This document shows, one piece after another, positions 29,220 to 48,581 of a DNA stretch of 58,351 bases. The position numbers were made by a program, and so were the translations under genes. The stretch is from an uncultured Gammaproteobacteria bacterium (GTDB lineage Bacteria > Patescibacteriota > Microgenomatia > UBA12405 > JAHJSD01): NCBI GenBank assembly GCA_964468355.1, contig CAYXSV010000036.1, forward strand, positions 1 through 58,351, written 5' to 3'. Under the pieces are notes generated by a model. The model saw only the letters and a program-made list of their open reading frames with translations, was not told the origin of the DNA and made no database searches. Numbering within the stretch: position 1 is the stretch's first letter; each line of letters starts with the position of its first letter.

Positions 29220-29220
29220 A

Positions 29221-29394: not shown

Positions 29395-29424
29395 TGCATA
29401 TCAACACCTCCCTTCATATTATTT

Positions 29425-29552: not shown

Positions 29553-29621
29553 CGTAACATGAAACACGTAACCCGTAACACGAAATAAAAAAAGATTTTG
29601 CATGTTACTTATTACGTTAAC
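29553..29621. repeat. Empty heptad hairpin unit 2 (identical 34-nt left arm; shorter right arm ATGTTACTTATTACGTTAAC overlapping the stop codon of the 29617 gene)
   Basis: Perfect 34-nt direct repeat of 29425-29458. Confidence 0.85.
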
Positions 29622-30246
29622 TATTCTCGTCTAAACAAAGAATCCAATCTCTTGTATTTACCGTCCCATTGTCATCAAAATCATACCTGGTATCACTTGT
29701 CCCAAATTTTTCTTTAAATTCACTTTTATCACAACTGGTTACTTTTTCAGACGGTTCAGACGGTTCAACCGGTTGTGTAGTAGCTTGCGGCTTCGGGCTC
29801 GGTTCAGCTGCCGGCATGTCCGTCGGCTCGACAACCGGCTCCGGCTCTTGAGATGCTGCCCCTTCTTCCTCTTTAGTTTTAAAAGAATAAGGAATACCGT
29901 TATTATCAAAAATCTCATCGTCTATTCTTAACCTAAAATAATAAGTCGTCTCTGATTTAAGCGGTGATAAAACCACCCGATGAGTTGTCCCCGGCTGATT
30001 TTCCAAAGCTCTTAAAAGCAAGCTGGCTGGAGTTGTACCATACTCGACAGTACCTTGGACTTCATTATCAGTCTGCCAGCTGACGGTCGCTGATTTAACA
30101 TCGGCCTCAACCCGGACATTCTGCGGTTCTTTTCCACCGGAAGCACCACTTAAATAAGTTTTAGCAGTTCTTACTCCAACTGCAGCTAAAACTCCGGTTA
30201 ATAACAAAATTACAATTATAATGACTGATTTTACCTTTTTCTTCAT
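29617..30246 (-). CDS. Membrane-anchored FN3-like domain protein with a C-terminal single dockerin-like Ca-loop
   Basis: Start set at MKKKVKS (ATGA overlap with the upstream stop). FN3/PAP-N-like PQNVRVEADVKSATVSWQTDNEVQGTVEYG...TTYYFRLR. P/E-rich linker. C...YDFDDNGTVNTRDWILC. Confidence 0.6.
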   Translation of the reverse strand: MKKKVKSVIIIVILLLTGVLAAVGVRTAKTYLSGASGGKEPQNVRVEADVKSATVSWQTDNEVQGTVEYGTTPASLLLRALENQPGTTHRVVLSPLKSETTYYFRLRIDDEIFDNNGIPYSFKTKEEEGAASQEPEPVVEPTDMPAAEPSPKPQATTQPVEPSEPSEKVTSCDKSEFKEKFGTSDTRYDFDDNGTVNTRDWILCLDENS

Positions 30247-30914
30247 AATGCTAACACCCAACTAAATAATAACATAATTCCTCCACCCAATGCAGCGATA
30301 AGTAAAGGAGTTTCTATACCTGTTTCCGGAAGCTCGCTCGGTGTAGGTGTTGGTTCTTCAGGAGCAGAAGTCGGCTGGGGTTCTTCTGTTGGTTCCGGTT
30401 CTCCGGCCCCGATTACGTAACTGCCGCTGCCGCAAGCAGCACAGTCAATTAAATCATTTCCCTGTTGATCCCAAATTGCAGAGTCAGTATCAACCCCGGA
30501 TTCACATAAAAAAGAAACTGAAGCTGTCCCTTCGGCAGTTGCTTCAAAACTAATAGTTGCAATTTCACCAACTCCGCTGTTGGTTACCAAGGCCTGTTCA
30601 GAAAAAGAATAAATCGTCAGCTTACCATTAGCGTTTTCAATATTATAATCAAACCCGGAAAAGAAATCACCTGCTGAAACCTGGTTAACTTTTAATTTAT
30701 TCTGGTCAAAACTAATTAAAGCGTCAGCGGCCATTGCTTCCTTATCTCCGGTGTCAATCTGAACAACCACATCAAAATTATCGCCAACATTATAATTACC
30801 TTCCGAGGGTTCAAAATACAAACGCGGACCGGCCTTAGCACCTACGGCAGATGCATGCCATATAAAAACAAAAACGATTATTGGTAATCCTAACCATTTT
30901 AATATTTTGTTCAT
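30243..30914 (-). CDS. Cohesin-domain protein with a C-terminal LPETG sortase sorting signal
   Basis: Signal peptide. Cohesin-like YFEPSEGNYNVGDNFDVVVQIDTG...ALISFDQNKLKV...GEIATISFEATAEGTASVSF. PT linker. LPETG (nt 30318-30332) followed by a hydrophobic tail. Confidence 0.7.
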   Translation of the reverse strand: MNKILKWLGLPIIVFVFIWHASAVGAKAGPRLYFEPSEGNYNVGDNFDVVVQIDTGDKEAMAADALISFDQNKLKVNQVSAGDFFSGFDYNIENANGKLTIYSFSEQALVTNSGVGEIATISFEATAEGTASVSFLCESGVDTDSAIWDQQGNDLIDCAACGSGSYVIGAGEPEPTEEPQPTSAPEEPTPTPSELPETGIETPLLIAALGGGIMLLFSWVLAL

Positions 30915-30921
30915 TTAAACC

Positions 30922-31506
30922 TTATTCAATATTCAAAACTAAATCTTCTTTAGTAAAACCGAACTCTTCTCCTCCGCCGGCAAGTACAGTACCTTCACTT
31001 CCTACAGGGGCGTAAACTTCAATCTTAGTTTGACCGGCAGCTAAACCCACCAATTTTATAGTCGATAAATTGGTTTGACTTCCTGCCTCAAAAACTACCC
31101 CTTCCGGAGCGTCGGTTTCAACCATAGAAATTAATACCCTTTCTTTTTCCGGCTCAACCCAATTACGGCCGACAAAAGAAAATTCGTCGGTAGGATCAGC
31201 CCCGATAATTTCAACTACATCCGGGTCATATTTAAGATAAATATCAACCCCGTCCAGATTTATCGTTTTTAAAGCAGTTAAAACTACTTTAAACGACTCC
31301 TCTTCTCCAGCACTTATTTGATTTTCACCTTCCAAGCTTATTATCGCCGGTTCTTGAACTTCGTTTATCTCATTCGGTGATGAAAAACGTTCTTTTACCG
31401 AGCCGGTTTTTAACTGTAATCGATTTACTACAATTACACTTTCTAAAATAATTAGTAAAGCCAAGGCCGGAATCAACCATTTCGTTTTTTCTATATTAAA
31501 ATTCAT
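30922..31506 (-). CDS. Membrane-anchored cohesin-like domain protein
   Basis: N-terminal TM helix. FKVVLTALKTINLDGVDIYLKYDPDVVEI...LSTIKLVGLAAGQTKIEVY. Confidence 0.55.
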   Translation of the reverse strand: MNFNIEKTKWLIPALALLIILESVIVVNRLQLKTGSVKERFSSPNEINEVQEPAIISLEGENQISAGEEESFKVVLTALKTINLDGVDIYLKYDPDVVEIIGADPTDEFSFVGRNWVEPEKERVLISMVETDAPEGVVFEAGSQTNLSTIKLVGLAAGQTKIEVYAPVGSEGTVLAGGGEEFGFTKEDLVLNIE

Positions 31507-31562
31507 TTTATTTATTTCACCCCTTATTAATTAATAACATTTAATTAATCTATTTTCAAGAT

Positions 31563-32687
31563 TTAAAGTTCGTCTTCGTATTTTGTACTCAGTGTTTCCA
31601 GGAAAAAGACAACATCCTGTGAATTGACAATCCCGTTAAAATTAATATCTTCTTCGATTTCACCTTCAACCATTAATGCTTGTTTCAAAGTGGTAAAATC
31701 AGCGCTGTTAACTACACCGTTTTGGTCAATATCCCCGGGCTCCAAATTAAGAGCAGTCCAATCAAACTCGTTTTCGCCGGCATTCAAAGTAATACCTTCC
31801 TCGCCGAGCCAGCAGTGTTCCACCTGCTCATCCTCACAAAAACGGCGGGCTAAATGGACCGGACCTTTTATTAAAACTGCATAGTTGTCCCCCGGCTCAA
31901 CCCCGACTAATTCTAAACTACCTGTCCCCACGGCTTGGTTATCAAATTCAACCATTACATCTTTATACCTTTGACTGATTCCATTACCTTTCACAATTAC
32001 GTCAACCGGCTGTGTTCCAATATCTTCAACAATTTTTTCCTGATTATTAACCAAATATTTTGTTCCTCCAAATGTAATTTGAAAAGACAATTCCGGCCAG
32101 CCGGCAGGCGGTTCAGTAGGAATTGGCGTCGGTTCGCCCCCTAAAACATCAATCTCCGCGTCGGAAAATGAACCAATATCCAAAACTCTATCATCAACTC
32201 CTTCAACCCCCTTTGACCCGACAAATGAAACAGCTGCTGTTTTAGACAGAGTACTACTGCCTTCATTTAATAATTTAAATTTAAAACCAGCTAAATTGAA
32301 CGGTTCAGCCGGAATTTGGCCGTCTGATTTTAAATATGAAACGGTTTCAACTACCCCCTCGTCAACTACCTGAGAAACGCCGTTATAATTCTCATTTAAT
32401 TCCACCGATTGAAATTCCAGAATATTAGGGTCATAACTAATACTGAAATGACCGCCGCTGACTAAATATTCTTCAGGCAGTACCTGCAATTGAACATTAG
32501 CTGTTTCTTGATCAAGGTCAACTTCTTGAACATCCGGAAGAAGCTGTAAGTTAATTTCTCCATAGGCAGCTTCTCTTCTTACTTCCTGGGTCTGCTTTAC
32601 CAAAATTAAACCGGCAAAGACGGATATAAAAGGAATTAAAAGTAACAAAACCAATATCCTATTTTTATAATCTTTTTGATTAGTCAT
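31563..32687 (-). CDS. Cohesin-like, beta-sandwich and canonical type-I-like dockerin protein
   Basis: N-terminal TM helix plus QTQEVRREAA. HFSISYDPNILEF cohesin-like region. C-terminal DIDQNGVVNSADFTTLKQAL...DINFNGIVNSQDVVFFLETL (two Ca-loop/helix repeats). Confidence 0.7.
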   Translation of the reverse strand: MTNQKDYKNRILVLLLLIPFISVFAGLILVKQTQEVRREAAYGEINLQLLPDVQEVDLDQETANVQLQVLPEEYLVSGGHFSISYDPNILEFQSVELNENYNGVSQVVDEGVVETVSYLKSDGQIPAEPFNLAGFKFKLLNEGSSTLSKTAAVSFVGSKGVEGVDDRVLDIGSFSDAEIDVLGGEPTPIPTEPPAGWPELSFQITFGGTKYLVNNQEKIVEDIGTQPVDVIVKGNGISQRYKDVMVEFDNQAVGTGSLELVGVEPGDNYAVLIKGPVHLARRFCEDEQVEHCWLGEEGITLNAGENEFDWTALNLEPGDIDQNGVVNSADFTTLKQALMVEGEIEEDINFNGIVNSQDVVFFLETLSTKYEDEL

Positions 32688-32689
32688 TT

Positions 32690-33994
32690 TTAAAATTTAG
32701 GCAACTCACTATACCACTGTTCAACATCATCTTCACTTAAAATACCGTCGCAATTAAAGTCACCGTATAAATTATCACTGCCTAACTTATAATCATCGTA
32801 CCAGCCGGCAAAATCTTCCATATTAACTGTTCCGTCACAGTCGTAATCGGCTTTAGACTCAATTTTAGTTCCGTCCGGACACGGCTTGCACCCGGTTTGG
32901 GGCTCCGTCGTGGCTGTCGGCTCCGGTGTATTAGTTGCACTCGGCGGCATCGTGGCTGTCGGTTCCGGCGTATTGGTTGCACTTGGCGGCATCGTGGCTG
33001 TCGGCTCCGGTGTATTGGTTGCACTCGGCGGTCTTGTGTTTGTCGGTGTCGGCGTACTTTCCGTACAATCCTGGACAAATACCGCTGTCCCTCCGGTATA
33101 ATCAATATCAACCGACTTTCCGTCTTCAGTAGTCCCGGCAACAATAGATTTACTCTCATTCAGATTAAAATTAAACCGCCCCGGTTCAGTGCCGGTAATC
33201 TCAACACCAATTCTAAAGCTCCTCGGCGGGTTACCACCGGCATAAAGCGAAGTTACAAGCAGCTCATTATTTCTGGCATCATAACCTCCCTCCCCCCACT
33301 TACTATCAAAAGTTACATTTTTAATTGTGCTTCTGGTCGAATCATAATCAAAATACAACTGCAAACCGGACATGCTTTTTCCTGAATCGCCTGAAACGGT
33401 TATTGTTCCCGTTTCTTGTGTGCAAAGATGCAAACTGCTCGGCTGGGAAATTGTAATTGTCTCACCTGCCGGACTGTCCGTCGGAGTGGAAGCCGGTGTA
33501 TTAGTATTAACCGGACTATCACAATCAACCACCTTTACCGTGGTATCACCGGATGCACTAATATTCATACTGTCATCTTCAAGTCCACTCATAAAACTTT
33601 TCCCGGTTAATAACCTAAAACTTGAATTGCCTAAACTTTTACCCCTTAAAGTAACATTAAATTGAATATTTTTTTGAGGATTTGCAAACATATGAGAACT
33701 AACACTTAAATCACCCTCAAAAATACTCCAAGTTTTGTTGACATCTTCAATCTCGACTTTACTATCATCAAATCCAAAGTCGAAAGCATAACTGGTTATT
33801 TTCTGGTTTGAACTGCCGCTTACCGCAAAAGTCTCCGTATCTCCCAAACACACTTCAACTTCTGAGGGAAGCTGAATATTCCCACCGCCTGCCGCCCCTC
33901 TTCTTGTTTCTAAATTTTCTCGAACAACATAACCGGCGAAGACAAGACTTAGCAAGCCAACTATACTGATAAAAGCTAATTTTAAGTTATTCAT
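32690..33994 (-). CDS. Protein with two Cys-stapled cohesin-like modules, a PT-repeat linker and a Cys-framed dockerin-like C-terminus
   Basis: N-terminal TM helix plus ENLETRRGAAGG. Modules VEVCLG...VVDC and HLCTQ...VQDC. Three copies of PPSATNTPEPTATM. CKPCPDG...DYDCDGTVNMEDF...DFNCDGILSEDDV. Confidence 0.65.
   Translation of the reverse strand: MNNLKLAFISIVGLLSLVFAGYVVRENLETRRGAAGGGNIQLPSEVEVCLGDTETFAVSGSSNQKITSYAFDFGFDDSKVEIEDVNKTWSIFEGDLSVSSHMFANPQKNIQFNVTLRGKSLGNSSFRLLTGKSFMSGLEDDSMNISASGDTTVKVVDCDSPVNTNTPASTPTDSPAGETITISQPSSLHLCTQETGTITVSGDSGKSMSGLQLYFDYDSTRSTIKNVTFDSKWGEGGYDARNNELLVTSLYAGGNPPRSFRIGVEITGTEPGRFNFNLNESKSIVAGTTEDGKSVDIDYTGGTAVFVQDCTESTPTPTNTRPPSATNTPEPTATMPPSATNTPEPTATMPPSATNTPEPTATTEPQTGCKPCPDGTKIESKADYDCDGTVNMEDFAGWYDDYKLGSDNLYGDFNCDGILSEDDVEQWYSELPKF
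32910..33031. repeat. 42-bp tandem repeat, about 2.9 copies (encodes the PPSATNTPEPTATM linker)
   Basis: Units at 32910-32951, 32952-32993 and 32994-33031 with a few substitutions. Confidence 0.9.
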
Positions 33995-34050
33995 ATACGT
34001 ATATTAATTAAACAATACAACATTTTTAAAAAAAATAAAAGTCCCAATTT

Positions 34051-36006
34051 TTAATCACAATTAGAATGTTCCGTTGGACACCATCGGGCATACCATATTT
34101 GATGATCCGAAACAGTAATATCCCCGTCGCAATCATAATCTCCATATAATTCATCTTTATCTACTCTCTGTCCGTCTAATTTAACTTTAGAATACTGCTG
34201 TGCCCATCGGCCGTAATCGACATTTTGTTTACCGTCGGTATCACAATTAAAACTAGATGTTCTAACAGGAGCAAAACTGCCGTCCGGACACGGCTTGCAT
34301 CTTTCTTCCCCACCCCCGACAACAATTTTCTGACTCAATAGGTTATTTTCTTCGTTAACTTCCTCAATCTGGTCTTCACGATCAACCCATACATAAACAT
34401 CGTGTTCGCCGGCTTCATCAAAGACATAATCATACGACCAGTCAAACTTTTTATCCGGTATCAACCAAACATGATGACCGTAATATGAAGTTTCCGGTGT
34501 TGCTTGCGTCGGGGGCTGTTGCTCCGGGTCTATATATAAATAAGTAGTAAAATCCCTAGTTGCCATTTGACCAATATTTTTAATCTCGGCCGTTATACTT
34601 ACTTCATCTCCGGGCTGCGGATTAGACGGGCTGTAACTAATACTAGAAATTGTCAAATCCGGCATTCTGTCATCCTCCACACAGGCCGAATCCGGGGCCT
34701 CAAATTCTATTAAATAAGAACCCTCGGGTAGTTCGCTTCTGCTCCATCTAGCATTGGGAATATAAGGATTCCAATACTCGCCGTAGGTTATCGCCGAATG
34801 CGGCGGATTGCCCCTTAATTGCAAAAATTCATCATTTTCACATTTTTCTCTTTCACACAACCCAACATATAATCCATTTCTTTCATCTGTACTAATTATG
34901 GTAGTCATTTTAGCTCCTATTCTTGAATCTTCTAAAACCGGCTCAAAAGGGTTTGGCGGCCAAGCTACATACCAGGTACTTACTTCAATATCCGCTATAC
35001 TTCCGTCCTCACATACCGCCGCTGTCTCTATATCCCACGATAAACTCTCTGAAACTATTGATACTACCCGGTTACAGTTACTACACTCAGCCGTAGCATT
35101 ATTACAAGTTCCAACTGGATTACCTGTACACCAATTATCCATTTCGTCATATACATTAGCTACAACATAATATTTACCCTGGGAAACACCTGAAACATCC
35201 CACTCTGCTTCCCAACCGTCACTGCCATTATTATCAGTGTCAATTACCGTCCAATTATTACTGTCACAGTAATAACTCTCAGTAGCATTCTCCTTGTATT
35301 CTGCGTAGGCAAATGTTACTTCTTTTAAATCGCCGTCCTCATCACTCGCTGTTGCCTTCACCAATGTCTTATCCTCACTAATAACGGAATTTACGGATAA
35401 ATTAGTGCATTCAGGTACATTTTCGCCTCCTGAGGCCGGCGTATTGGTTGGGTCAACCGGTGGAGCAGGCGTAGGCGTTGGGTCAACCGGCGGTGCAGGT
35501 GTGCTTGTCGGCTCTTCACCACAAATACAATCGGTGTCAGTTAAACAATCCGGGTTTCTGCAAACACCTGAACTTGATATTATTTCTCTTTCAAAATCAG
35601 TTGTTTCAATTAACTCTTGTGCTAACTGATCACTTTCTCCCATCACAACTCCGCCGCTGACCGTCTGACAGTTTCCATCTGGGCCACATACGCAATCCTC
35701 TCCTTCCGGAGGCATCACATCCGGACAGTAAACACCAGTATTCCTTGGTACACAATCTTGTCCGCACCACATACAATCCCTGTCTGAACTACAGCCCTCT
35801 TTATAACAAACTAAACCGCTTCCACACTGTGAATCGTCTGAGCAAGGTTGATTACAATCACTGACAGCGGCCTTGCGGGTTTCCTGCCTTTGCTGAACTA
35901 AGTTGATTGCCGCCGGTAAAGCAATTCCTAAAATTAGTAAACCCAAAATTATCGGCAATTGAGACATGCCCTTTTGCTGATATTTTTTATTTTTGATTAA
36001 ATTCAT
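34051..36006 (-). CDS. Large secreted cysteine-rich modular protein (Cys-knot modules, Ig-like, CARDB-like, Cys-framed dockerin-like C-terminus)
   Basis: N-terminal TM helix plus QQRQETRKAA. CNQPCSDDSQCGSGLVCYKEGC... modules. CARDB-like PDLTISSISYSPSNPQPGDEVSITAEIKNIG. The C-terminal 82 aa CKPCPDG...WCPTEHSNCD is a paralog of the 36546 gene's C-terminus. Confidence 0.65.
   Translation of the reverse strand: MNLIKNKKYQQKGMSQLPIILGLLILGIALPAAINLVQQRQETRKAAVSDCNQPCSDDSQCGSGLVCYKEGCSSDRDCMWCGQDCVPRNTGVYCPDVMPPEGEDCVCGPDGNCQTVSGGVVMGESDQLAQELIETTDFEREIISSSGVCRNPDCLTDTDCICGEEPTSTPAPPVDPTPTPAPPVDPTNTPASGGENVPECTNLSVNSVISEDKTLVKATASDEDGDLKEVTFAYAEYKENATESYYCDSNNWTVIDTDNNGSDGWEAEWDVSGVSQGKYYVVANVYDEMDNWCTGNPVGTCNNATAECSNCNRVVSIVSESLSWDIETAAVCEDGSIADIEVSTWYVAWPPNPFEPVLEDSRIGAKMTTIISTDERNGLYVGLCEREKCENDEFLQLRGNPPHSAITYGEYWNPYIPNARWSRSELPEGSYLIEFEAPDSACVEDDRMPDLTISSISYSPSNPQPGDEVSITAEIKNIGQMATRDFTTYLYIDPEQQPPTQATPETSYYGHHVWLIPDKKFDWSYDYVFDEAGEHDVYVWVDREDQIEEVNEENNLLSQKIVVGGGEERCKPCPDGSFAPVRTSSFNCDTDGKQNVDYGRWAQQYSKVKLDGQRVDKDELYGDYDCDGDITVSDHQIWYARWCPTEHSNCD
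35447..35506. repeat. 30-bp tandem duplication encoding the TPAPPVDPT(P/N) linker
   Basis: GTTGGGTCAACCGGTGGAGCAGGCGTAGGC / GTTGGGTCAACCGGCGGTGCAGGTGTGCTT. Confidence 0.85.
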
Positions 36007-36521
36007 TTAAATATACTCATTATCCATTTCCATAACTTTAAAAACTCACTATTTTTTTCACAGTTAATTACTTTAACATCACTTTCTCCGGAAACACTGA
36101 TGTTTATGTCTTCGTCTTCTATTCCTCCCATCCAGCTGTCAGTTTCTAGAAATTTAAATTTTGAATTTCCAATTTTGGCACCTTTTAAGTTAACATTAAT
36201 CTGGAAATCTTTTTGGGGGTTGTTAAATATATGAGAACTCACTTTTAAATCACCATCTTTAATGCTCCACGTGCGATCAACATCTTCTATCTCCACCATA
36301 TTTTGATCAAAATCAAAAGCAAACACGTAACCGGTTATTTCTTGATCAGCCCGGCTTGTAACAGTTAATTTTTTAATTTCACCTAAACAGACTTCGACCT
36401 GAGGAGGAAGAATAATTTTTCCCTCAGCTTTAACCGGTCTTACAAAAAATAAATCTTGTTTAATAATAAGGTGAAGAAATATCAAAACTATTAAGAAAGA
36501 ACCGTATTTGAGTTTTTTCAT
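36003..36521 (-). CDS. Secreted Cys-stapled cohesin-like single-module protein (paralog of the N-terminal module of the 32690 gene)
   Basis: PPQVEVCLGEIKKLTVTSRADQEITGYVFAFDFDQNMVEIEDVDRTWSI...VKVINC aligns with PSEVEVCLGDTETFAVSGSSNQKITSYAFDFGFDDSKVEIEDVNKTWSI...VKVVDC. ATGA overlap with the next gene. Confidence 0.55.
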   Translation of the reverse strand: MKKLKYGSFLIVLIFLHLIIKQDLFFVRPVKAEGKIILPPQVEVCLGEIKKLTVTSRADQEITGYVFAFDFDQNMVEIEDVDRTWSIKDGDLKVSSHIFNNPQKDFQINVNLKGAKIGNSKFKFLETDSWMGGIEDEDINISVSGESDVKVINCEKNSEFLKLWKWIMSIFK

Positions 36522-36545
36522 AAAATATAAAGTAGCTTAAATATG

Positions 36546-38873
36546 TTAATCACAATTTGAATGTTCTGTCGGACACCATCTGGCATACCATATTTGATGA
36601 TCAGAAACATTTATTTCTCCGTCACAATTGTAATCTCCGTATAATTGGTTACTAGGCACTTGTTTACGTTCAATTACAACCGCGTAATACTGCTGAGCCC
36701 ACCGACCGTAGTCAACATTCTCTTTACCATTCGTATTGCATTTAAAACTGGATGTATTTTGAGAAGCGAAACTACCATCCGGACACGGTTTACAACCTTT
36801 TCCGGGTCCCGGCGGTACAGTTGTCGGCTCAGATTCAGAAATACATTTACTATAATCGCTTGCCCATTTATAGCCGGTCGGCGGATAAAGCTCACAATTT
36901 ACAGCTCCGGAAGTGCCCTCTGTCTTTCCGCACCCTGAATGTCCCGGGCAATAATCAGATACACATTGAACAGCACAATTATCTTTTGTTGGACTACCAC
37001 AATCTGCATCTGTTTGACAAGTTTGTCCTGGTCTTACCGTTGGCGAAAGAGTATTTGTCGCCCGCGGCGCTCTTGTCGGAGTATTTGTCGGTGTTTCTTC
37101 ACATGCACTATCAGGACATTGACGATAACCACCGGGATTACTCGTATACCAATCACAACCATAACCACAAGTTGACGTTACACAATAGCAAATTTCTTCT
37201 GGTGGTGTTGGTGTATTTTCCGGATTTTCACATCTATCCGCCCAGCAAACTTCAATCGGGAAATAGGAATGCGGACCACAAGTTAAACCCTCCTTACACT
37301 CGTTATTTTGTAAGCATGTATCGCCACAATCTTTATTCCCGGCAGACGGCGTATTTGTCGGTGTTTCTTCCGGGATACAACATACCTCATTGTGGCCGCG
37401 GCAATCAGTAGGATCCACTGCCTTTTCACCAGTTTTACACCCTCCTACTCGACAAACCCCAGCATCAGAATCTCCCAGATAACCGCAAGTTTGTAATTTT
37501 GGTTCAGGCGTATTCGTTGGTTCAGGTTCACAACAATATTTATATCCTCCACCAAAATCTACTCCACACTTTTTAGCATACCAAACTTGACCTCCACAAT
37601 TTGCCGGTGGCACACATGACTCCTCTGGATCACAATCTACAAATTCCGGTTCACAAGCACATCCACCACCCACCATCTCACAACTCTCACCTGAAGGACA
37701 ATCCCCTACACACTCATTGCCATTCGGTGTCGACATCATACGGCATACACTTGGTGTATTTGTTGGAGCTCTAGGTGTATTTGTTGGCCGTGGCCCACAA
37801 TAACAGACAGTACCAACACAGTAATAACTGTTCTTGCAACGACTGCAATTAGGGAGAACAGGGTCAGTATATGTTTGACACCTGGTTCCATCTTGCAAGC
37901 CGGCTGACGGTGTAGGCGTAAAATTATAACAAGTACAACATGAGTCAACATCTCGACTTGTCGGGCTTGAACAGTGTCCGCCATCAACACCATGAACTTT
38001 TTGGCATGCTTCTGTACATGAAGAATATTCACCTAAACAACAAATACAATTATCGCAGGCCCGACATGTACCAGGCATTCCTTGCCTTAAATCACAATAT
38101 TTTGATTGACATTCGGAATTAGAACTACATTGCCAGCCATTTGGCTTCGGCGTACTTGTCGGCTGTGGTTTTGTTCGGCATGTACCAGGCATCCCCTGAC
38201 TTAAATCACAATAACTAGAACAACATTCCGAGTTGCTACCACACTGCGAACCATTGGATTTACAACTTGGTGTATTTGTTGCTCGCGGTCTTGTTGTATT
38301 TGTCGGTTGAGGTTTTGGGGTATTGGTCGGATAAGGTGAACAATTTGCATTACATGTACCTTCACTGGAATAAGTTCCGTCATAACCTTGGACACAATAC
38401 CCCAGAGAACGAGAACACTTCCATTTTAAATCAACTTCTCCATAACACTCACATTCTCCGTCAATAGTTGGATGGGGTTTACATTCCCTACCCGAAGCAC
38501 AGGTACCTACACATTGAAATCCTGCCGGAGTAAATTCTCCTCTGCACGTTTCTTCATAAGGCGTTGCCGTCGCTGGCGGTGGAGCTGTCTTACATTCGGC
38601 ACATATACTTGAATGCTGAGTACATTTTGGGCCACAATAACCTCTATCTACCCAATTACCGTCAACACACTCATAATCATGGCAATCACCTTGATTACAA
38701 TGTGTGCCCGTCAAGCCACCACATGTACTTGCCGCTTCTTTTCTTGTTTCCTGGCTTTGCTGGGTTAATCTTAATGCCGCCGGTAAAGCGACTCCCAAAA
38801 GTAGCAAACCAATTATAATCGGAACCTGCGCACTTCCGCGTTGATTAAAAATATTTTTAATTCTTGTTAACAT
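36546..38873 (-). CDS. Hyper-cysteine-rich (about 88 Cys in 775 aa by hand count) modular secreted protein with PTNTP linkers and a Cys-framed dockerin-like C-terminus
   Basis: N-terminal TM helix plus QQSQETRKEAA. About 10 Cys modules, each with an even Cys count, separated by P/T-rich linkers. Internal tandem module NG[SW]QC[GS]SNSEC.S.YCDL.QGMPGTCR x2. C-terminal CKPCPDG...WCPTEHSNCD. Confidence 0.65.
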   Translation of the reverse strand: MLTRIKNIFNQRGSAQVPIIIGLLLLGVALPAALRLTQQSQETRKEAASTCGGLTGTHCNQGDCHDYECVDGNWVDRGYCGPKCTQHSSICAECKTAPPPATATPYEETCRGEFTPAGFQCVGTCASGRECKPHPTIDGECECYGEVDLKWKCSRSLGYCVQGYDGTYSSEGTCNANCSPYPTNTPKPQPTNTTRPRATNTPSCKSNGSQCGSNSECCSSYCDLSQGMPGTCRTKPQPTSTPKPNGWQCSSNSECQSKYCDLRQGMPGTCRACDNCICCLGEYSSCTEACQKVHGVDGGHCSSPTSRDVDSCCTCYNFTPTPSAGLQDGTRCQTYTDPVLPNCSRCKNSYYCVGTVCYCGPRPTNTPRAPTNTPSVCRMMSTPNGNECVGDCPSGESCEMVGGGCACEPEFVDCDPEESCVPPANCGGQVWYAKKCGVDFGGGYKYCCEPEPTNTPEPKLQTCGYLGDSDAGVCRVGGCKTGEKAVDPTDCRGHNEVCCIPEETPTNTPSAGNKDCGDTCLQNNECKEGLTCGPHSYFPIEVCWADRCENPENTPTPPEEICYCVTSTCGYGCDWYTSNPGGYRQCPDSACEETPTNTPTRAPRATNTLSPTVRPGQTCQTDADCGSPTKDNCAVQCVSDYCPGHSGCGKTEGTSGAVNCELYPPTGYKWASDYSKCISESEPTTVPPGPGKGCKPCPDGSFASQNTSSFKCNTNGKENVDYGRWAQQYYAVVIERKQVPSNQLYGDYNCDGEINVSDHQIWYARWCPTEHSNCD

Positions 38874-38882
38874 TTTTATTTT

Positions 38883-39125
38883 TTATTGACAGCAATAAGG
38901 CGTCTCACTTGGACAATCGCCTTTGTTCCATTTCATATTTAATAAGTGACAATACTGCTCTTTACATTCTGTTTGGCAGGGATAACCAACCTGAGGCATC
39001 GAACTGCCGGCCGCCCCGCGCCGTGTTTCTTGAGTCTGCCTAACCAAAGCAACCACACCAGTCAATATAATTAAAACGAAAAGTATTAATAGAAGTTTTA
39101 AAATTTTCTGTTTACTTTGATCCAT
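38883..39125 (-). CDS. Small (80 aa) precursor: TM helix plus RQTQETRRGAAG motif plus a 6-Cys C-terminal peptide
   Basis: First gene of the operon. The C-terminal PCQTECKEQYCHLLNMKWNKGDCPSETPYCCQ has six Cys. Confidence 0.5.
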   Translation of the reverse strand: MDQSKQKILKLLLILFVLIILTGVVALVRQTQETRRGAAGSSMPQVGYPCQTECKEQYCHLLNMKWNKGDCPSETPYCCQ

Positions 39126-39153: not shown

Positions 39154-39183
39154 ACTTTAGACGAATATACTCTCGTTTGTCAA
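39154..39183 (-). promoter_or_regulatory. Candidate promoter for the surface operon (TTGACA-18-TAAAGT on the minus strand)
   Basis: Exact -35 hexamer but a weak -10. This is the only intergenic gap longer than 60 nt at the 5' end of the operon. Confidence 0.3.
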
Positions 39184-39230: not shown

Positions 39231-40598
39231 ATGGGAAAATTGCCGACGATACTAGCCATGCTTCTCATTATCCCTATTGGTTTATACGCCGTATTTCAAA
39301 ACCATGATTTGCGGCGGTCTGCGTTCGGTAAAAAAGCAGACATTAAAATCGACGTCTCCAAACCCGGGGGTTTAATTTCAAAATCTCTCTGGCAAAACTT
39401 TTCTCAAGGCGGAGAAGAACCAAAAGACATGATCGCTCCGGTCAAAAACGAGGTTGCCAATCTTCAGCCGGAAATCATCCGCATTGACCATATTTTTGAC
39501 TATTATGTTGGCATTAACGGTCGGGTTTATGACTTTTCAAAATTAGACCAAATAGTCCAAACTATTCTTGATACCGGTGCTAAACCAATGTTTTCTTTAT
39601 CTTACATGCCGCCGGAAATTGCTGTTGACGGCCAAAAGACTTCTCCGCCCCAAAACTGGAATCAATGGAATGAACTGGTTAAAGCGACTATTTCGCGTTA
39701 TTCAGGACAAAACAATTTTAATTTAAACAATATTTATTATGAAGTCTGGAACGAGCCGGATTTATTCGGCGGCTGGCACTATGGCCGGGAACCGAACTAT
39801 TTAACACTTTATTATCATACGGTTAAATCCGCCCAAGAAATAGAAAACGTCAACAATTTTAAAATCGGCGGCCCGGCAACCACCGGTTTCTACCCTAATT
39901 GGATCAAGGCCCTATTTGATTATTGCTACAAAAACAAGTTGAGAATTGATTTTGTTTCCTGGCACCATTATTCTAAAAATATTAATGAATATTTAAGAGA
40001 TTTTGAAAAATTAAATCAAATTTTGACCGATTACGGCGATTACTTTAATGTCGAGCGCTTAATTACCGAATACGGACCCGACTCGGAAAATTCCCCCTGG
40101 TATGACAATCATTTGGGTGCTGTTCACAGTTTAGCCGGAGTAACTAAATTAATGGGAAAAGTCCATCGCATTTTTGCTTTTCAGCTTAAAGACGGTCCTT
40201 CACCGGAAAGTAAAAAATATTGGGGACGGTGGGGTTTAATAAGCCACGAAAACCACGAAATAAGTTTAAAGCCGAGATATTACGCTTATCAATTTTTAAA
40301 TCAACTAGAAGGTCAACAGCTTCCTCTGGAAGGCGAGGGTTCCTGGGTATCGGCAGCAGCAGTTAAAAAAGATAATAAAATTCAAGTTTTAGTTGTTAAT
40401 TACGACCCGTCAAACAACCATTACGAATCCCCGCCGATTACATTAGAAAATATTGAGCCGGGCAACTATATTTTCCGCCAAATTAGATTCCAGGGACAAG
40501 CGGTTGCCTCAAGAGAAAAAATTGAAAAAACAACAATAACTAAAAAGTTTATTCTTCAACCCAATTCAGCAATTTTACTGGAATGGATTAAATTGTAA
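39231..40598 (+). CDS. Membrane-anchored clan GH-A glycoside hydrolase, GH39-like
   Basis: N-terminal TM helix. YYEVWNEPDLFGGW (acid/base NEP) and LITEYGPD (nucleophile E) in a (beta/alpha)8-like spacing. Confidence 0.6.
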   Translation: MGKLPTILAMLLIIPIGLYAVFQNHDLRRSAFGKKADIKIDVSKPGGLISKSLWQNFSQGGEEPKDMIAPVKNEVANLQPEIIRIDHIFDYYVGINGRVYDFSKLDQIVQTILDTGAKPMFSLSYMPPEIAVDGQKTSPPQNWNQWNELVKATISRYSGQNNFNLNNIYYEVWNEPDLFGGWHYGREPNYLTLYYHTVKSAQEIENVNNFKIGGPATTGFYPNWIKALFDYCYKNKLRIDFVSWHHYSKNINEYLRDFEKLNQILTDYGDYFNVERLITEYGPDSENSPWYDNHLGAVHSLAGVTKLMGKVHRIFAFQLKDGPSPESKKYWGRWGLISHENHEISLKPRYYAYQFLNQLEGQQLPLEGEGSWVSAAAVKKDNKIQVLVVNYDPSNNHYESPPITLENIEPGNYIFRQIRFQGQAVASREKIEKTTITKKFILQPNSAILLEWIKL

Positions 40599-47262: not shown

Positions 47263-47820
47263 TTAGTCAAAATCAACCCAGTGTTTGGAGGCAGTCGGGC
47301 CCTTTTGACCTTGATATTTACTTTTTAATTTTTTACTTCCATAAGCATTTTCAACTTTGCTGGTCATTTTATAAAAGACTATCTGCGCAATCCGCATACC
47401 GGCATACATTCGAATCGGCAGGCGTGAAATATTGGCAATTTCAAAAGTAAGCCAGCCGGAAAAACCGGGGTCAACATAACCGGCGGTAGCATGAACAATC
47501 AATCCCAGCCGGCCCAAAGAGCTTCTACCCTCCAGTTTTGCCGCTACACTTAACGGCAAAGTCACTTTTTCCGCAGTCGAGCCAAGAATAAACTCTCCGG
47601 GATGCAAAACAAATCCAGCTTCTTTAATTTTAACCACCCGTGAAACATCCTCCTTTTTCCGAACGTCTATTTCGCCTTGATTCCAGTTATCAAATACACG
47701 CACCTCTTCGCTTAACTCTAAATCCAAACTGGAAGGTTGAAGATTTTCCGGTTTAAAAGGGTCAATTTTAATCTTTCCGCTCTTAATCTTATTTTTAATA
47801 TCTTTATCTGAAATAATCAT
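47263..47820 (-). CDS. dcd: dCTP deaminase (dUTPase superfamily)
   Basis: MIISDKDI...I.P......QP.S.DL.L, GRSSLGRLGL, and GFSGWLTFEI motifs. Confidence 0.88.
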   Translation of the reverse strand: MIISDKDIKNKIKSGKIKIDPFKPENLQPSSLDLELSEEVRVFDNWNQGEIDVRKKEDVSRVVKIKEAGFVLHPGEFILGSTAEKVTLPLSVAAKLEGRSSLGRLGLIVHATAGYVDPGFSGWLTFEIANISRLPIRMYAGMRIAQIVFYKMTSKVENAYGSKKLKSKYQGQKGPTASKHWVDFD

Positions 47821-48581
47821 TCCTTTAATTTACCAAAGACTAATAACCGTTTCAATATTGTCCCCGGCGGCCAGCAGGTCTGAAGAATTATCTCCTCACG
47901 TCCCGGCTGATAATCAGTTAAGTAAGAAATATCTTTGGCTCCGACAATCTTCTTATCAAAAATTTGATAAGTATAAGGCCGGTTTTGGTAAACCAAGTGA
48001 ACTTCATCACCCGGCTCCAGCTTATTTAACAAAAAGAAAACCGCATTATAACGGACCACATTCCATTCGGCATTAGTTGAATGAGCAAAAAGAAAAACCG
48101 GCTTAGTTGACCCGGGTAAACCGCTTCCGGCTGCATGAGCGACACCGTCTTTTAAAACTTCCTGATAAATTTCAGGTTTGCCGGGATCAATGTTGGGAAA
48201 TACTTGAGCACTGGACTCTAATTTGGGAATATAAACTGAAAAATCCTTGTTTATAACCGGCCAGTCATCCGGAACTTCTGGTATCGGCATTGGAGTCGGT
48301 GTTAGGGTCGGAGTCGGATTACCTCGTAGGGACAAGTCGCGACTTGTCCCTACATCCACTCTCTGCCAATGATATCCAGCCATTGCTCTGGCCAACGGCA
48401 GCCAAAGATAAGTTAAATACCCTAAACACAAAATAACCGCTCCCGTTCCCAAACCAAAAACAAATGTTCTTATTTTTGACGGGTTATAAAAAATAAGCTG
48501 TTTTTTACCTTTCTTTGGTTTAACTGCCTTCTTTAATTTCGGATCAAAAAAATCTTTCATGGTTGCTTTCTTATTATACAT
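47817..48581 (-). CDS. Sortase-family transpeptidase (membrane-anchored)
   Basis: N-terminal TM helix, PT linker, VFLFAHST (His), ILQTCWPPG (TLxTC-type Cys), and a downstream Arg (KRLLVFG). Confidence 0.8.
   Translation of the reverse strand: MYNKKATMKDFFDPKLKKAVKPKKGKKQLIFYNPSKIRTFVFGLGTGAVILCLGYLTYLWLPLARAMAGYHWQRVDVGTSRDLSLRGNPTPTLTPTPMPIPEVPDDWPVINKDFSVYIPKLESSAQVFPNIDPGKPEIYQEVLKDGVAHAAGSGLPGSTKPVFLFAHSTNAEWNVVRYNAVFFLLNKLEPGDEVHLVYQNRPYTYQIFDKKIVGAKDISYLTDYQPGREEIILQTCWPPGTILKRLLVFGKLKE
48326..48353. repeat. Perfect 28-nt palindrome GTAGGGACAAGTCG|CGACTTGTCCCTAC inside the sortase linker coding region
   Basis: 14+14 nt self-complementary. Encodes ..GTSRDLSLRG.. between the TM helix and the PT linker. 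Confidence 0.95.

What the first reader, a model, noticed from the sequence alone, without database searches (positions are those of the whole stretch)
29617..39125. Nine-gene operon encoding a sortase-anchorable cohesin-dockerin surface assembly with cysteine-rich cargo proteins
All nine genes lie on the minus strand, with gaps ranging from a 4-nt overlap to 56 nt, including two ATGA overlaps. The order in the direction of transcription is as follows.
1. A small 6-Cys peptide precursor (38883-39125).
2. A 775-aa hyper-Cys-rich protein (36546-38873).
3. A single cohesin-like module (36003-36521).
4. A 651-aa Cys-rich protein with Ig-like and CARDB-like domains (34051-36006).
5. A protein with two cohesin-like modules, a PT-repeat linker and a dockerin-like end (32690-33994).
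6. A cohesin-like protein with a canonical two-repeat dockerin, DIDQNGVVNSAD.../DINFNGIVNSQD... (31563-32687).
7. A cohesin-like protein (30922-31506).
8. A cohesin with LPETG and a hydrophobic tail (30243-30914).
9. An FN3 protein with a single dockerin-like loop (29617-30246).
A sortase gene lies 17 kb away at 47817-48581. A membrane-anchored GH39-like hydrolase is transcribed divergently from 39231. The parts list matches the logic of cellulosome-like scaffolds: a wall-anchored cohesin, cohesin-dockerin adaptors and dockerin-bearing payloads. Here, however, the payloads are disulfide-rich modular proteins rather than enzymes. In a reduced, probably episymbiotic bacterium this could be a cell-surface attachment or host-interaction machine. 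Non-cellulosomal cohesin and dockerin modules are already known to be widespread. What I cannot place in anything I know is this particular combination.
Basis: partly seen in the sequence, partly recalled or inferred. Interest (0 to 1): 0.88.

Follow-up and report, generated by a model that had tools for sequence, protein, structure and literature searches.

The report
Cohesin-dockerin surface scaffold in Patescibacteria
A nine-gene cluster in an uncultured, small-genome (Patescibacteria-type) bacterium encodes the parts of a cellulosome-style "plug-and-socket" surface scaffold, but its cargo is very cysteine-rich non-enzyme proteins rather than enzymes, so it is a candidate attachment or host-contact device.

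Summary
Nine tightly packed minus-strand genes (29617-39125) sit exactly where described.

All six cohesin-like modules hold up, through Pfam, profile-profile comparison, PDB profile searches and AlphaFold2 plus Foldseek.

- g6 is a Coh-X-Doc protein whose best structural match is the CohI9-X-DocII end of Clostridium thermocellum CipA.
- g8 is a cohesin with an LPETG motif and a hydrophobic tail.
- g9 carries a Cys-flanked half-dockerin.

The core order Coh-X-Doc, TM-cohesin, cohesin-LPXTG, TM-FN3-half-dockerin is the same in 9 other contigs (21-95% module identity). Wherever enough upstream sequence was read, at least one 6-11.5% Cys protein precedes it. Every named relative is "Patescibacteria group bacterium". 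The cargo proteins have no enzyme domains.

Binding, sortase anchoring, co-transcription and function remain untested. The closest analogues are the Ruminococcus flavefaciens sca cluster (ScaE and XDoc) and the C. thermocellum CipA anchoring module. I found no published description of such an operon in this phylum.

Verdict: a real, conserved, non-cellulosomal cohesin-dockerin system, a new variant of a known kind, and moderately to highly interesting.

The parts
39154..39183 (-). Promoter-like site (TTGACA-18-TAAAGT) 29 nt upstream of the g1 start, in the 105-nt divergent intergenic region
   Evidence: (10 of 12 matches, the best minus-strand site). This is a consensus match only.
38883..39125 (-). 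g1: 80-aa precursor with a TM helix, the QETRRGAA motif and a 6-Cys peptide (C-3-C-4-C-11-C-6-CC). No dockerin.
   Evidence: A 67.5%-identical orthologue sits at the same position in L008.
36546..38873 (-). g2: 775 aa with 88 Cys. About 10 small disulfide-rich modules separated by PT linkers, ending in a DocC dockerin.
   Evidence: No Pfam or PDB sequence match to the Cys modules.
36549..36797 (-). g2 DocC (long type) dockerin module, aa 693-775
   Evidence: The loop is DYNCDGEINVSD.
36003..36521 (-). g3: 172-aa single-cohesin protein (cohesin at aa 33-155, nt 36057-36425)
   Evidence: 53% identical to g5 module 1. hhalign of this module type gives 93.5% against the g8 cohesin and 97.2% against the g6 cohesin.
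34051..36006 (-). g4: 651 aa with 32 Cys. Cys-rich N-terminus, an unknown middle region, CARDB (aa 449-558, nt 34333-34662) and a DocC dockerin.
34054..34302 (-). g4 DocC (long type) dockerin module, aa 569-651
   Evidence: The DNA is 76-87% identical to the g2 3' end.
32690..33994 (-). g5: two cohesins (aa 37-159, nt 33518-33886; aa 177-311, nt 33062-33466), a PT linker with three 42-nt tandem repeats, and a DocC short type (aa 368-434, nt 32693-32893)
   Evidence: AF2 model, Foldseek cohesin matches.
31563..32687 (-). g6: Coh-X-Doc adaptor. Cohesin aa 48-184 (nt 32136-32546), X module aa 195-312 (nt 31752-32105), two-repeat dockerin aa 313-374 (nt 31566-31751).
   Evidence: Pfam, AF2, Foldseek top hits CipA CohI9-X-DocII 4fl4_C and 3kcp_A.
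30922..31506 (-). g7: N-terminal TM helix plus cohesin (aa 51-194, nt 30925-31356)
   Evidence: Family profile against PDB hits the NagJ cohesin 2ozn_A at E = 4.6e-4. hhalign gives 94.4% against the g6 cohesin.
30243..30914 (-). g8: signal peptide, cohesin (aa 28-165, nt 30420-30833), PT/E linker, LPETG (aa 195-199, nt 30318-30332) and a hydrophobic tail
   Evidence: Pfam Cohesin 47.1 bits. LPE[TA]G plus tail is kept in all aligned orthologues.
29617..30246 (-). g9: TM helix, FN3-like domain (aa 40-124, nt 29875-30129), linker, and a Cys-flanked single-loop half-dockerin (aa 170-209, nt 29620-29739)
   Evidence: hhalign of doc6 against doc9 gives 76%.
39231..40598 (+). Divergently transcribed, membrane-anchored GH39-family protein, a conserved neighbour
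   Evidence: Pfam 107 bits. The same divergent position is held in L013, L014, L015 and L021 at 59-66% identity.
47817..48581 (-). Sortase, the candidate enzyme for anchoring g8
   Evidence: PF04203 67.9 bits. TIGR01076 scores 43 bits against a cutoff of 39.35, and no sortase class is assigned. Its orthologue lies about 6 kb from the operon in L015.

Best explanation
The cluster encodes a self-assembling cell-surface scaffold built on cohesin-dockerin ('socket and plug') contacts, in an uncultured Patescibacteria-type bacterium.

Shown:
- There are six cohesin modules (g3, g5 twice, g6, g7, g8).
- There are five dockerin-type modules: the canonical two-repeat dockerin of g6 preceded by an X module, the Cys-containing 'DocC' variant at the C-termini of g2, g4 and g5, and a half-dockerin in g9.
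- One cohesin (g8) carries an LPETG sorting motif.
- A sortase gene lies in the same window.
- The four-gene core, together with Cys-rich cargo, is conserved across relatives.

Inferred assembly:
- g8 is linked to the wall by the sortase and acts as the base.
- The X-Doc of g6 plugs into g8, by analogy with CipA XDocII binding SdbA and ScaB XDoc binding ScaE.
- The g6 cohesin, and in this expanded version the g3 and g5 cohesins, hold the DocC dockerins of the hyper-Cys-rich proteins g2 and g4 and of the g5 adaptor.
- The membrane-tethered g7 cohesin and the g9 half-dockerin form a second, membrane-proximal link.

Inferred function: the displayed cargo is strings of small disulfide-rich (knottin- or defensin-like) modules plus a CARDB domain. 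It binds something rather than catalysing a reaction. The most likely role is adhesion to a host cell or surface glycan, or host manipulation.
For: Cohesins:
- Pfam places g8 and g6 above the gathering threshold.
- hhalign gives coh8-coh6 96.8%, coh8-coh35 93.5%, coh6-coh35 97.2% and coh6-coh7 94.4%, with the X-domain control under 3%.
- The g7 family profile hits the NagJ cohesin at E = 4.6e-4.
- The g5 and g6 AF2 models match cohesin structures at TM 0.7-0.8 and rmsd 2.5-3.4.

Coh-X-Doc: the g6 model aligns over about 350 columns with CipA CohI9-X-DocII (4fl4_C, E = 5e-13; 3kcp_A).

Dockerins:
- g6 scores 29.2 bits for Dockerin_1.
- In the DocC family, 15 of 21 members hit Dockerin_1 (best 7e-6) and 5 of 21 hit NCBIfam dockerin_GC (best 5.5e-7).
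- The DocC profile's best PDB hits are dockerins (5lxv_B E = 0.0037, aligned across both loops).
- The EF-hand loop pattern is restricted to these genes within 58 kb.

Conservation:
- The same core order occurs in L008, L011, L012, L013, L014, L015, L019 (where the contig begins at the g7 orthologue), L020 and L021.
- A 6-11.5% Cys protein precedes the core in all seven cases with enough upstream sequence. It carries DocC in six of them (the window, L008, L013, L014, L020 and L021) and lacks it in L015.
- The minimal loci have three cohesins and three dockerin types.
- LPE[TA]G is kept in the aligned g8 orthologues.
- Cargo proteins in relatives lack enzyme domains.

Analogy: R. flavefaciens ScaE is LPXTG/sortase-anchored and binds XDoc and half-dockerins, and the components are encoded in one sca cluster (PMC5301203).

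Taxon: all named relatives are Patescibacteria.
Against: - No binding test was possible.
- Both AF2 models give the dockerin segments pLDDT below 50.
- The DocC modules of the window's own proteins are below Pfam thresholds: g5 scores 12.6 bits, and g2 and g4 give no hit.
- g8's sorting signal lacks the usual basic tail and is below threshold for Gram_pos_anchor (13.1 bits, GA 20) and TIGR01167 (11.5 bits, cutoff 15.9).
- The sortase is 17 kb away and its class is unassigned.
- Eight of the nine proteins begin with a TM helix that may not be cleaved. If so they stay membrane-tethered, which would change the geometry.
- Two Cys-rich proteins in relatives lack DocC (L008 833 aa, L015 373 aa).
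- The mirror-tree test of pairings was uninformative.
- Nothing here shows the cargo's function.
Confidence: 0.7

Rival explanations
1. It is the scaffold half of a true enzyme-recruiting complex, cellulosome- or amylosome-like. Dockerin-bearing hydrolases encoded elsewhere in the genome dock onto these cohesins, and the Cys-rich proteins act as substrate-binding (CBM-like) subunits comparable to CttA.
For: - A membrane-anchored GH39 gene is a conserved divergent neighbour.
- At a second locus of a relative's genome (L016), a Metallophos-domain protein with a dockerin-like loop sits next to a cohesin+DocC protein.
- The architecture equals CipA/ScaB-ScaE.
Against: - No protein with a dockerin loop in the 58-kb window has an enzyme domain.
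- The GH39 protein has no dockerin.
- The cargo in seven related loci has no enzyme domains.
- The window shows no other glycoside hydrolases or CBMs.
Confidence: 0.12
2. It is a structural envelope lattice. The cohesin-dockerin contacts simply cross-link membrane-tethered and wall-anchored proteins into a coat (an S-layer-like or wall-spanning mesh), and the Cys-rich proteins act as rigid structural elements rather than ligand-binding cargo.
For: - Eight of the nine proteins have N-terminal TM helices.
- The neighbouring genes are envelope-polysaccharide genes (Wzy_C, Bac_transf, GT4, GH39) in L008, L020 and L021.
- Cys-rich extracellular proteins in CPR have been proposed to give rigidity (PMC4736985).
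Against: - The cargo is the most variable part in number, length and module content, which fits an interaction surface under diversifying pressure better than a structural lattice.
- A CARDB adhesion-type domain is present.
Confidence: 0.12
3. The beta-sandwich and EF-hand-like modules are homologous to cohesins and dockerins but do not bind each other. The genes are independent surface or secreted proteins that are merely clustered.
For: - Binding is untested.
- The dockerin segments are low-confidence in AF2.
Against: - Cohesin and dockerin genes co-occur strictly, in a fixed order, across 21-95% module identity.
- The minimal loci show a 3:3 cohesin:dockerin count.
- Within 58 kb both module types occur only in this cluster.
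Confidence: 0.06

Closest known systems
Ruminococcus flavefaciens sca gene cluster (ScaC-ScaA-ScaB-CttA-ScaE)
   Same: - One gene cluster encodes the scaffold.
- The base is a single-cohesin protein with an LPXTG sortase signal (ScaE, matching g8).
- An X-Doc-bearing cohesin protein plugs into the base (ScaB, matching g6).
- A non-enzymatic binding protein with a dockerin also docks (CttA, matching g2 and g4).
- Adaptor scaffoldins and half-dockerins exist.
- Some R. flavefaciens dockerin loops carry Cys at the same position (GDxNCDG) (PMC5301203).
   Different: - Here no dockerin-bearing glycoside hydrolases or CBMs were found.
- The cargo is hyper-Cys-rich knottin-like arrays.
- The scaffoldins are tiny (1-2 cohesins each).
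- The DocC dockerin has an extra CxxC and four invariant Cys.
- Most components carry N-terminal TM helices.
- The organism is a Patescibacteria-type bacterium, not a Firmicute.
Clostridium thermocellum CipA C-terminal CohI9-X-DocII module bound to anchoring scaffoldin SdbA (PDB 4fl4, 3kcp)
   Same: It is the best structural match to g6 across all three modules in the same order (E = 5e-13, about 350 aligned columns). The logic is also the same, with X-Doc attaching a cohesin-bearing protein to a wall-anchored cohesin.
   Different: - Sequence identity is only 15-17%.
- The global TM score is low (0.3) because the module orientations differ.
- The C. thermocellum anchor uses SLH domains, not LPXTG.
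- CipA has nine cohesins and a CBM3.
Non-cellulosomal cohesin-dockerin pairs: Clostridium perfringens NagJ/NagH toxin complex (2ozn, 2jh2, 2vo8) and the Archaeoglobus fulgidus cohesin (2xdh)
   Same: These are the closest sequence and structure matches for g7 (2ozn_A, E = 4.6e-4) and for the g5 modules (2vo8 TM 0.79, 2xdh TM 0.73). They are also cohesin-dockerin used outside cellulose degradation.
   Different: - The C. perfringens system links large glycoside hydrolases.
- The archaeal modules have no defined assembly.
- Neither has an operon with a sortase-anchored base, an X-Doc adaptor and Cys-rich cargo.
Large cysteine-rich extracellular proteins of CPR bacteria (Peregrinibacteria) and the essential dockerin-domain protein of Saccharibacteria (SEML1_0315)
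   Same: The phylum-level context is the same. Cys-rich exported proteins have been proposed to mediate attachment (PMC4736985), and a dockerin-domain envelope protein is essential in an epibiotic Saccharibacterium (PMC10633639).
   Different: Neither report links Cys-rich proteins to cohesin-dockerin assembly or describes an operon like this one.

Membership tests
Cohesin (Pfam PF00963) | Sequence match to the family model at or above the gathering score | tested here: met
   g8 scores 47.1 bits and g6 24.5 bits against GA 24.1. g5 (22.5), g7 (15.4) and g3 (14.7) fall below GA. They are linked to g6 and g8 by hhalign at 93-97%, and g7 is linked by its family profile to the NagJ cohesin at E = 4.6e-4.
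Cohesin (Pfam PF00963) | Roughly 140-residue flattened beta-sandwich (jelly-roll) fold | tested here: met
   The AF2 models of g5 (both modules, pLDDT 70-90) and g6 (pLDDT about 90) superpose on cohesin crystal structures at TM 0.7-0.8 and rmsd 2.5-3.4. g3 is inferred from its 53% identity to g5 module 1. g7 and g8 were not modelled.
Cohesin (Pfam PF00963) | Binds a cognate dockerin | not testable with these tools
   No multimer prediction or experiment was available.
Dockerin type I (Pfam PF00404) | Two tandem segments of about 22 residues, each a Ca-binding loop (D-x-[DN]-x-[DN]-G-x-hydrophobic-x3-[DE]) followed by a helix | tested here: met
   - g6 has both loops (DIDQNGVVNSAD and DINFNGIVNSQD) and Pfam 29.2 bits against GA 22.9.
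- g5 DocC has both loops.
- g2 and g4 DocC have a canonical second loop and a degenerate first loop.
- AF2 predicts a helix after each loop.
- g9 has only one loop, making it a half-dockerin.
Dockerin type I (Pfam PF00404) | DocC modules reach the family threshold | tested here: inconclusive
   g5 DocC scores 12.6 bits, below GA, and g2 and g4 were not reported. At family level, 15 of 21 members match (best 7e-6), 5 of 21 match NCBIfam dockerin_GC, and the PDB profile's top hits are dockerins (E = 0.0037). EF-hand models score comparably.
Cellulosome | Dockerin-bearing glycoside hydrolases or other CAZymes as the recruited subunits | tested here: not met
   No dockerin-bearing protein in the window or in seven related loci has an enzyme domain. 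The neighbouring GH39 has no dockerin.
Cellulosome | Scaffoldin with a carbohydrate-binding module | tested here: not met
   No CBM family was detected in any of the nine proteins.
X-Doc anchoring dyad (type II/III) | An Ig-like X module immediately upstream of the dockerin | tested here: met
   A beta-sandwich at g6 aa 198-315 (pLDDT 72-87) lies directly before the dockerin. The whole protein aligns with CipA Coh-X-DocII. The X and Doc modules are markedly better conserved than the g6 cohesin.
Sortase substrate (LPXTG cell-wall sorting signal) | LPXTG, then a hydrophobic stretch, then a positively charged tail | tested here: inconclusive
   LPETG and a 24-residue hydrophobic tail are present and conserved. 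No K/R tail is present. Gram_pos_anchor scores 13.1 bits against GA 20, and TIGR01167 scores 11.5 against 15.9.
Operon | Co-transcription | not testable with these tools
   The evidence is only indirect. All genes share one strand, gaps are 56 nt or less, there are two ATGA overlaps, one promoter-like site lies upstream of g1, no terminator-like site falls in any intergenic gap, and the order is conserved.

The most novel reading that the evidence does not exclude
This is a lineage-specific 'adhesosome': a minimal cohesin-dockerin scaffold on which an episymbiotic Patescibacterium displays interchangeable arrays of knottin- or defensin-like Cys-rich modules. These arrays would set host or surface specificity, or deliver toxic peptides. 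They are attached through a previously undescribed class of dockerin (DocC) stapled by four invariant cysteines, either as disulfides or as a Zn site, with its own cohesin specificity. The conserved N-terminal TM + QETR[RK]xAA leader would be a dedicated export or processing signal for the system.
Probability: 0.3. Interest if true: 0.82.

Novelty: new variant of a known kind. Interest (0 to 1): 0.64.

Why it matters
How ultra-small, host-dependent Patescibacteria (CPR) attach to and interact with their hosts is largely unknown. Most of their surface proteins have no annotation.

This cluster offers a concrete, testable architecture: a wall-anchored socket, an adaptor, and swappable Cys-rich cargo. 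It also gives a reason why hyper-Cys-rich extracellular proteins recur in this phylum.

For the cohesin-dockerin field it provides three things:
- a compact, enzyme-free system with three or four apparent specificities in under 10 kb;
- an X-Doc outside the Firmicutes;
- a Cys-bearing dockerin subtype that could be useful as an orthogonal, possibly redox- or metal-stabilised assembly pair.

Tried and rejected
- **Sequence searches of the cargo.** I searched g2 and g4 against PDB. Nothing matched except the dockerin loop at E = 1.1. Pfam and NCBIfam found no family for the Cys-rich modules.
- **AF2 on the dockerins.** Both dockerin segments came out below pLDDT 50, including the Pfam-significant g6 dockerin. 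Low confidence is therefore uninformative, not evidence against a dockerin fold.
- **Mirror-tree correlation of module distances across six loci, to guess pairings.** coh6-docC gave 0.76 and coh8-doc6 gave 0.73, but coh8-docC also gave 0.76. With 15 non-independent pairs this cannot discriminate.
- **Taxonomy from genome record titles.** Six MAG titles say 'uncultured Gammaproteobacteria'. I rejected these as probably mislabelled, for two reasons. Every protein-level name among relatives says Patescibacteria. An LPXTG/sortase system also does not fit a gammaproteobacterium.
- **Pilus operon reading.** Rejected, because there is only one LPXTG protein and no pilin-type domains.
- **'Ig-like' domain in g4.** Not supported (Big_7, E = 1).
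- **Sortase class.** The sortase could not be assigned to a known class. All class models score far below their cutoffs.
- **Literature.** Searches for cohesin or dockerin together with CPR or Patescibacteria found no description of such an operon. The searched library is open-access only, so a prior description cannot be excluded.

Full report
**1. Observation**

The nine minus-strand ORFs are present at the stated coordinates. In the direction of transcription the gaps are 9, 24, -4, 56, 2, 56, 7 and -4 nt. Both overlaps read ATGA.

Cysteine content is as described:
- g1 has 6 Cys in 80 aa.
- g2 has 88 Cys in 775 aa (11.4%).
- g4 has 32 Cys in 651 aa.

The best minus-strand promoter-like site in the region (TTGACA-18-TAAAGT, 39183-39154) lies 29 nt upstream of g1. 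No terminator-like hairpin falls in any intergenic gap. These are consensus matches only, and co-transcription is not shown.

In a six-frame scan of the whole 58-kb window, three features are confined to this cluster:
- The dockerin/EF-hand loop pattern occurs only in g2, g4, g5 (twice), g6 (twice) and g9.
- A C-terminal LPxTG in a real gene occurs only in g8. The only other pattern match is in a 74-aa ORF (8134-8358, minus strand) lying antisense inside the gyrA gene.
- A TM helix followed by E[TV]R[RK] occurs only in g1, g2, g4, g5 and g6, apart from three or four unrelated ETRK/EVRR strings in ORFs without a preceding TM helix.

HMMs built from the cluster's modules hit nothing else in the window.

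**2. Are the modules what they seem?**

*Pfam.*

| Gene | Family | Bits | Gathering threshold |
|---|---|---|---|
| g8 | Cohesin | 47.1 | 24.1 |
| g6 | Cohesin | 24.5 | 24.1 |
| g5 | Cohesin | 22.5 | 24.1 |
| g7 | Cohesin | 15.4 | 24.1 |
| g3 | Cohesin | 14.7 | 24.1 |
| g6 | Dockerin_1 | 29.2 | 22.9 |
| g4 | CARDB | 57.4 | 22.7 |
| g9 | Pur_ac_phosph_N/fn3 | 38 | 30 |

*Profile-profile comparison of family alignments (hhalign).*

| Pair | Probability |
|---|---|
| g8 cohesin vs g6 cohesin | 96.8% |
| g8 vs g3/g5-type | 93.5% |
| g6 vs g3/g5-type | 97.2% |
| g6 vs g7 | 94.4% |
| g6 X domain (negative control) vs any cohesin | under 3% |

*Further cohesin evidence.*
- A profile of 11 g7 orthologues hits the Clostridium perfringens NagJ cohesin (2ozn_A) at E = 4.6e-4.
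- In the g5 AlphaFold2 model (3-sequence alignment), the two beta-sandwiches have pLDDT 70-90. Their best single-domain matches in the PDB are cohesins: 2vo8 at TM 0.79 and rmsd 2.5, and the Archaeoglobus non-cellulosomal cohesin 2xdh at TM 0.73.
- In the g6 model (29-sequence alignment), the cohesin has pLDDT about 90 and a second beta-sandwich at aa 198-315 has 72-87.
- The top four Foldseek hits for g6 are the Clostridium thermocellum CipA CohI9-X-DocII fragment (4fl4_C, E = 5e-13, about 350 aligned columns; 3kcp_A). More than 30 cohesin structures follow at TM 0.67-0.77.

So g6 is a Coh-X-Doc protein.

**3. A dockerin variant on the cargo**

g2, g4 and g5 share a C-terminal module, G-C-K-P-C-P-D-G ... 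D[YF][DN]CDG..., which I call DocC.

- A profile search of 1.84 billion representative proteins found 382 matches at E <= 1e-3 and 32 at E <= 1e-10.
- 24 of the proteins fetched up to that point carry the full CxxCP-plus-two-loops form at their C-terminus.
- In an alignment of 21 such modules, four cysteines are invariant: the CxxC pair and position 4 of each Ca-loop. Two Trp and three Asp (one in the first repeat, two in the second) are also invariant.
- 15 of 21 members hit Pfam Dockerin_1 (best 7e-6). EF-hand models score similarly.
- 5 of 21 hit NCBIfam dockerin_GC (best 5.5e-7).
- The profile's best PDB hits are dockerins. The top one is a Ruminococcus flavefaciens dockerin aligned across both loops (5lxv_B, E = 0.0037).
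- Some R. flavefaciens dockerins carry Cys at the same loop position (GDxNCDG).

g2 and g4 carry a long subtype, with a degenerate first loop, an insertion and an extra C-terminal Cys pair. g5 carries a short subtype.

g9 ends in a single loop flanked by two conserved Cys (C..EKFGTSD..YDFDDNG.VN..DW..C), which is kept in all orthologues. Half-dockerins are known in R. flavefaciens (PMC5301203).

AF2 gave all the dockerin segments pLDDT below 50, including the Pfam-significant g6 dockerin. That result is therefore uninformative.

**4. Conservation and taxon**

g6 has only 29 homologue clusters and g8 only 38 among 5.8 billion sequences. This is a narrow lineage.

Contexts were recovered by exact look-up and by a genome scan and annotated uniformly with local HMMs.

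- The order Coh-X-Doc, TM-cohesin, cohesin-LPXTG, TM-FN3-half-dockerin is the same in L008, L011, L012, L013, L014, L015, L019 (where the contig begins at the g7 orthologue), L020 and L021.
- Module identity to the window ranges from 21 to 95%.
- Wherever enough upstream sequence was read, at least one 6-11.5% Cys protein precedes the core. It ends in DocC in the window, L008, L013, L014, L020 and L021. In L015 the Cys-rich protein lacks DocC.
- The minimal loci (L013, L014, L020) therefore have three cohesins (g6, g7 and g8 types) and three dockerin types (DocC, X-Doc and the half-dockerin). L021 carries one additional cohesin-only protein (170 aa).
- The window and L008 are expanded versions with extra g3/g5-type cohesins and extra cargo.

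DNA repeats show that g2 and g4 share both their 5' leader ends and their 3' dockerin ends at 73-87% nucleotide identity. g3 and g5 module 1 are 53% identical. The pairs g2-g3 and g4-g5 thus look like a duplicated cargo-plus-cohesin unit.

The cargo proteins in seven related loci have no Pfam enzyme domain, only CARDB.

The GH39 gene is a conserved divergent neighbour in L013, L014, L015 and L021 at 59-66% identity. In L015 the sortase orthologue lies about 6 kb upstream of the operon.

Every relative that carries a source name is 'Patescibacteria group bacterium'. The 'uncultured Gammaproteobacteria' titles on several MAG records are probably mislabels.

**5. Cargo anatomy**

g2 is a string of about ten small modules, each with 6-20 Cys, separated by PT-rich linkers.

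- One module (aa 198-233) has the classical knottin spacing C-6-C-5-CC-3-C-9-C.
- Another (aa 460-500) has C-10-C-4-C-11-C-6-CC. Its last four gaps match the free-standing g1 peptide (C-3-C-4-C-11-C-6-CC).
- From my own knowledge, that spacing also resembles the beta-defensin pattern. This is a resemblance only. No fold test was possible.
- No Pfam, NCBIfam or PDB sequence match exists for these modules.

**6. Mechanism**

*Shown.* The parts list, their homology and folds, their exclusive co-occurrence and their conserved order.

*Inferred, by analogy with CipA XDocII binding SdbA and with ScaB/CttA XDoc binding ScaE.*
- g8 is anchored to the wall by the sortase and is the base.
- The g6 X-Doc plugs into g8.
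- The g6 cohesin, together with the g3 and g5 cohesins in the expanded version, holds the DocC cargo.
- g7 and g9, both membrane-tethered, form a membrane-proximal link. Alternatively g9 also docks on g8, as R. flavefaciens half-dockerins dock on ScaE.

Coh8, Doc6 and X are the best-conserved modules and Coh6 the least. That pattern fits a constant anchoring pair and a cargo-facing pair that co-varies with variable cargo. The mirror-tree test itself did not discriminate.

The function (adhesion or host contact) is inferred from four points:
- the non-enzymatic, Cys-rich, CARDB-bearing and highly variable cargo;
- the phylum's host-dependent biology;
- earlier proposals for Cys-rich CPR surface proteins (PMC4736985);
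- an essential dockerin-domain envelope protein in an epibiotic Saccharibacterium (PMC10633639).

*Caveats.*
- g8's sorting signal lacks a basic tail and scores below the curated thresholds.
- The sortase is unclassified.
- The N-terminal TM helices may not be cleaved.

**7. Comparison and novelty**

The system works like a miniature R. flavefaciens or C. thermocellum scaffold. It fails two defining features of a cellulosome, since there are no dockerin-bearing enzymes and no CBM.

It belongs with the non-cellulosomal cohesin-dockerin systems, which are already known to be widespread. Four things appear new:
- a complete, conserved operon of this kind in Patescibacteria;
- an X-Doc adaptor together with an LPXTG cohesin base outside the Firmicutes;
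- hyper-Cys-rich modular cargo;
- the DocC dockerin subtype.

Full-text searches found no prior description. The searched library is open-access only, so a prior description cannot be excluded.

I rate it a new variant of a known kind, with interest 0.64.

Noticed in passing
window 39000-39125 (g1), 38730-38873 (g2), 35860-36006 (g4), 33890-33994 (g5), 32565-32687 (g6); also P0004, P0036, P0040, P0052, P0053, P0056, P0069, P0097: g1, g2, g4, g5 and g6 share a conserved N-terminal leader: a TM helix followed by Q-x-Q-E-[TV]-R-[RK]-x-A-A. In the Cys-rich proteins the TM helix itself is almost invariant ([RK]G-x-A-Q-x-P-[IL]I-x-GLLL-x-G-x-ALPAA). Among the proteins fetched, this type was found only on proteins with 3.4-11% Cys. 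It matches no curated signal model. It is not a typical signal-peptidase I or prepilin site. It may be a dedicated export or processing signal.
   Followed up: partly
window 38883-39005 (g1 mature peptide) and g2 aa 460-500 (37374-37496), aa 198-233 (38175-38282): g1's 6-Cys spacing (C-3-C-4-C-11-C-6-CC) recurs in a g2 module and resembles beta-defensin spacing. Another g2 module has the classical inhibitor-cystine-knot spacing. The folds were not tested.
   Followed up: partly
L010-L012, L014-L016 record titles: MAG records that carry the orthologous operon are titled 'uncultured Gammaproteobacteria bacterium'. Every protein-level name among relatives says Patescibacteria. These are probably mislabelled submissions.
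   Followed up: partly
window 39231-40598 (+); L013, L014, L015, L021: A membrane-anchored GH39-family gene is a conserved divergent neighbour of the operon (59-66% identity). In L008 and L020 that position holds envelope-polysaccharide genes instead (Wzy_C, Bac_transf, GT4, WecG). From my own knowledge this resembles PslG-type exopolysaccharide hydrolases; I did not test that.
   Followed up: partly
window 41062-42120 (-); L014 487-1545, L015 6387-7445, L021 1090-2151: An RseP/site-2 protease gene stays close to the GH39-operon region in several relatives (52-64% identity). This may be plain synteny, or it may relate to processing of the TM leaders.
   Followed up: no
L016 3229-6172 (a second contig of the MAG that also holds L011): At a separate locus, a 686-aa Metallophos-domain protein with a dockerin-like loop (DQNKDGVVNGMD) sits next to a 292-aa protein with a weak cohesin match and a long-type DocC. 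The cohesin-dockerin network therefore extends beyond the operon and may include an enzyme.
   Followed up: partly
window 32901-33056: The PT-linker coding region of g5 contains three tandem 42-nt repeats (85-88% identical). This is a likely site of length variation.
   Followed up: no
window 48759-49445 (+), 50594-51487 (+), 51498-54659 (+): Three genes lie next to the sortase: a DUF11-repeat protein with no LPXTG, a GT2 glycosyltransferase, and a 1053-aa polytopic membrane protein with no Pfam match.
   Followed up: no
window 40645-41022 (+): A four-helix-bundle protein of the 23S rRNA intervening-sequence / Avd-like family (TIGR02436, 114.6 bits) lies between the GH39 and RseP genes. It is present in L002 but was not found in the more distant loci.
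   Followed up: no
window 26981-29400 and downstream; L001, L006, L008, L019-L021: The housekeeping genes downstream of the operon (rpsU, YqeY, YbeY, DnaX, YbaB, CysS, S6, SSB, S18, CtpB-like, HtrA-like) are collinear in all relatives. The operon therefore sits in a stable chromosomal core, not in a mobile island. GC is slightly higher across the operon (0.40-0.42) than in the flanks (about 0.36).
   Followed up: no
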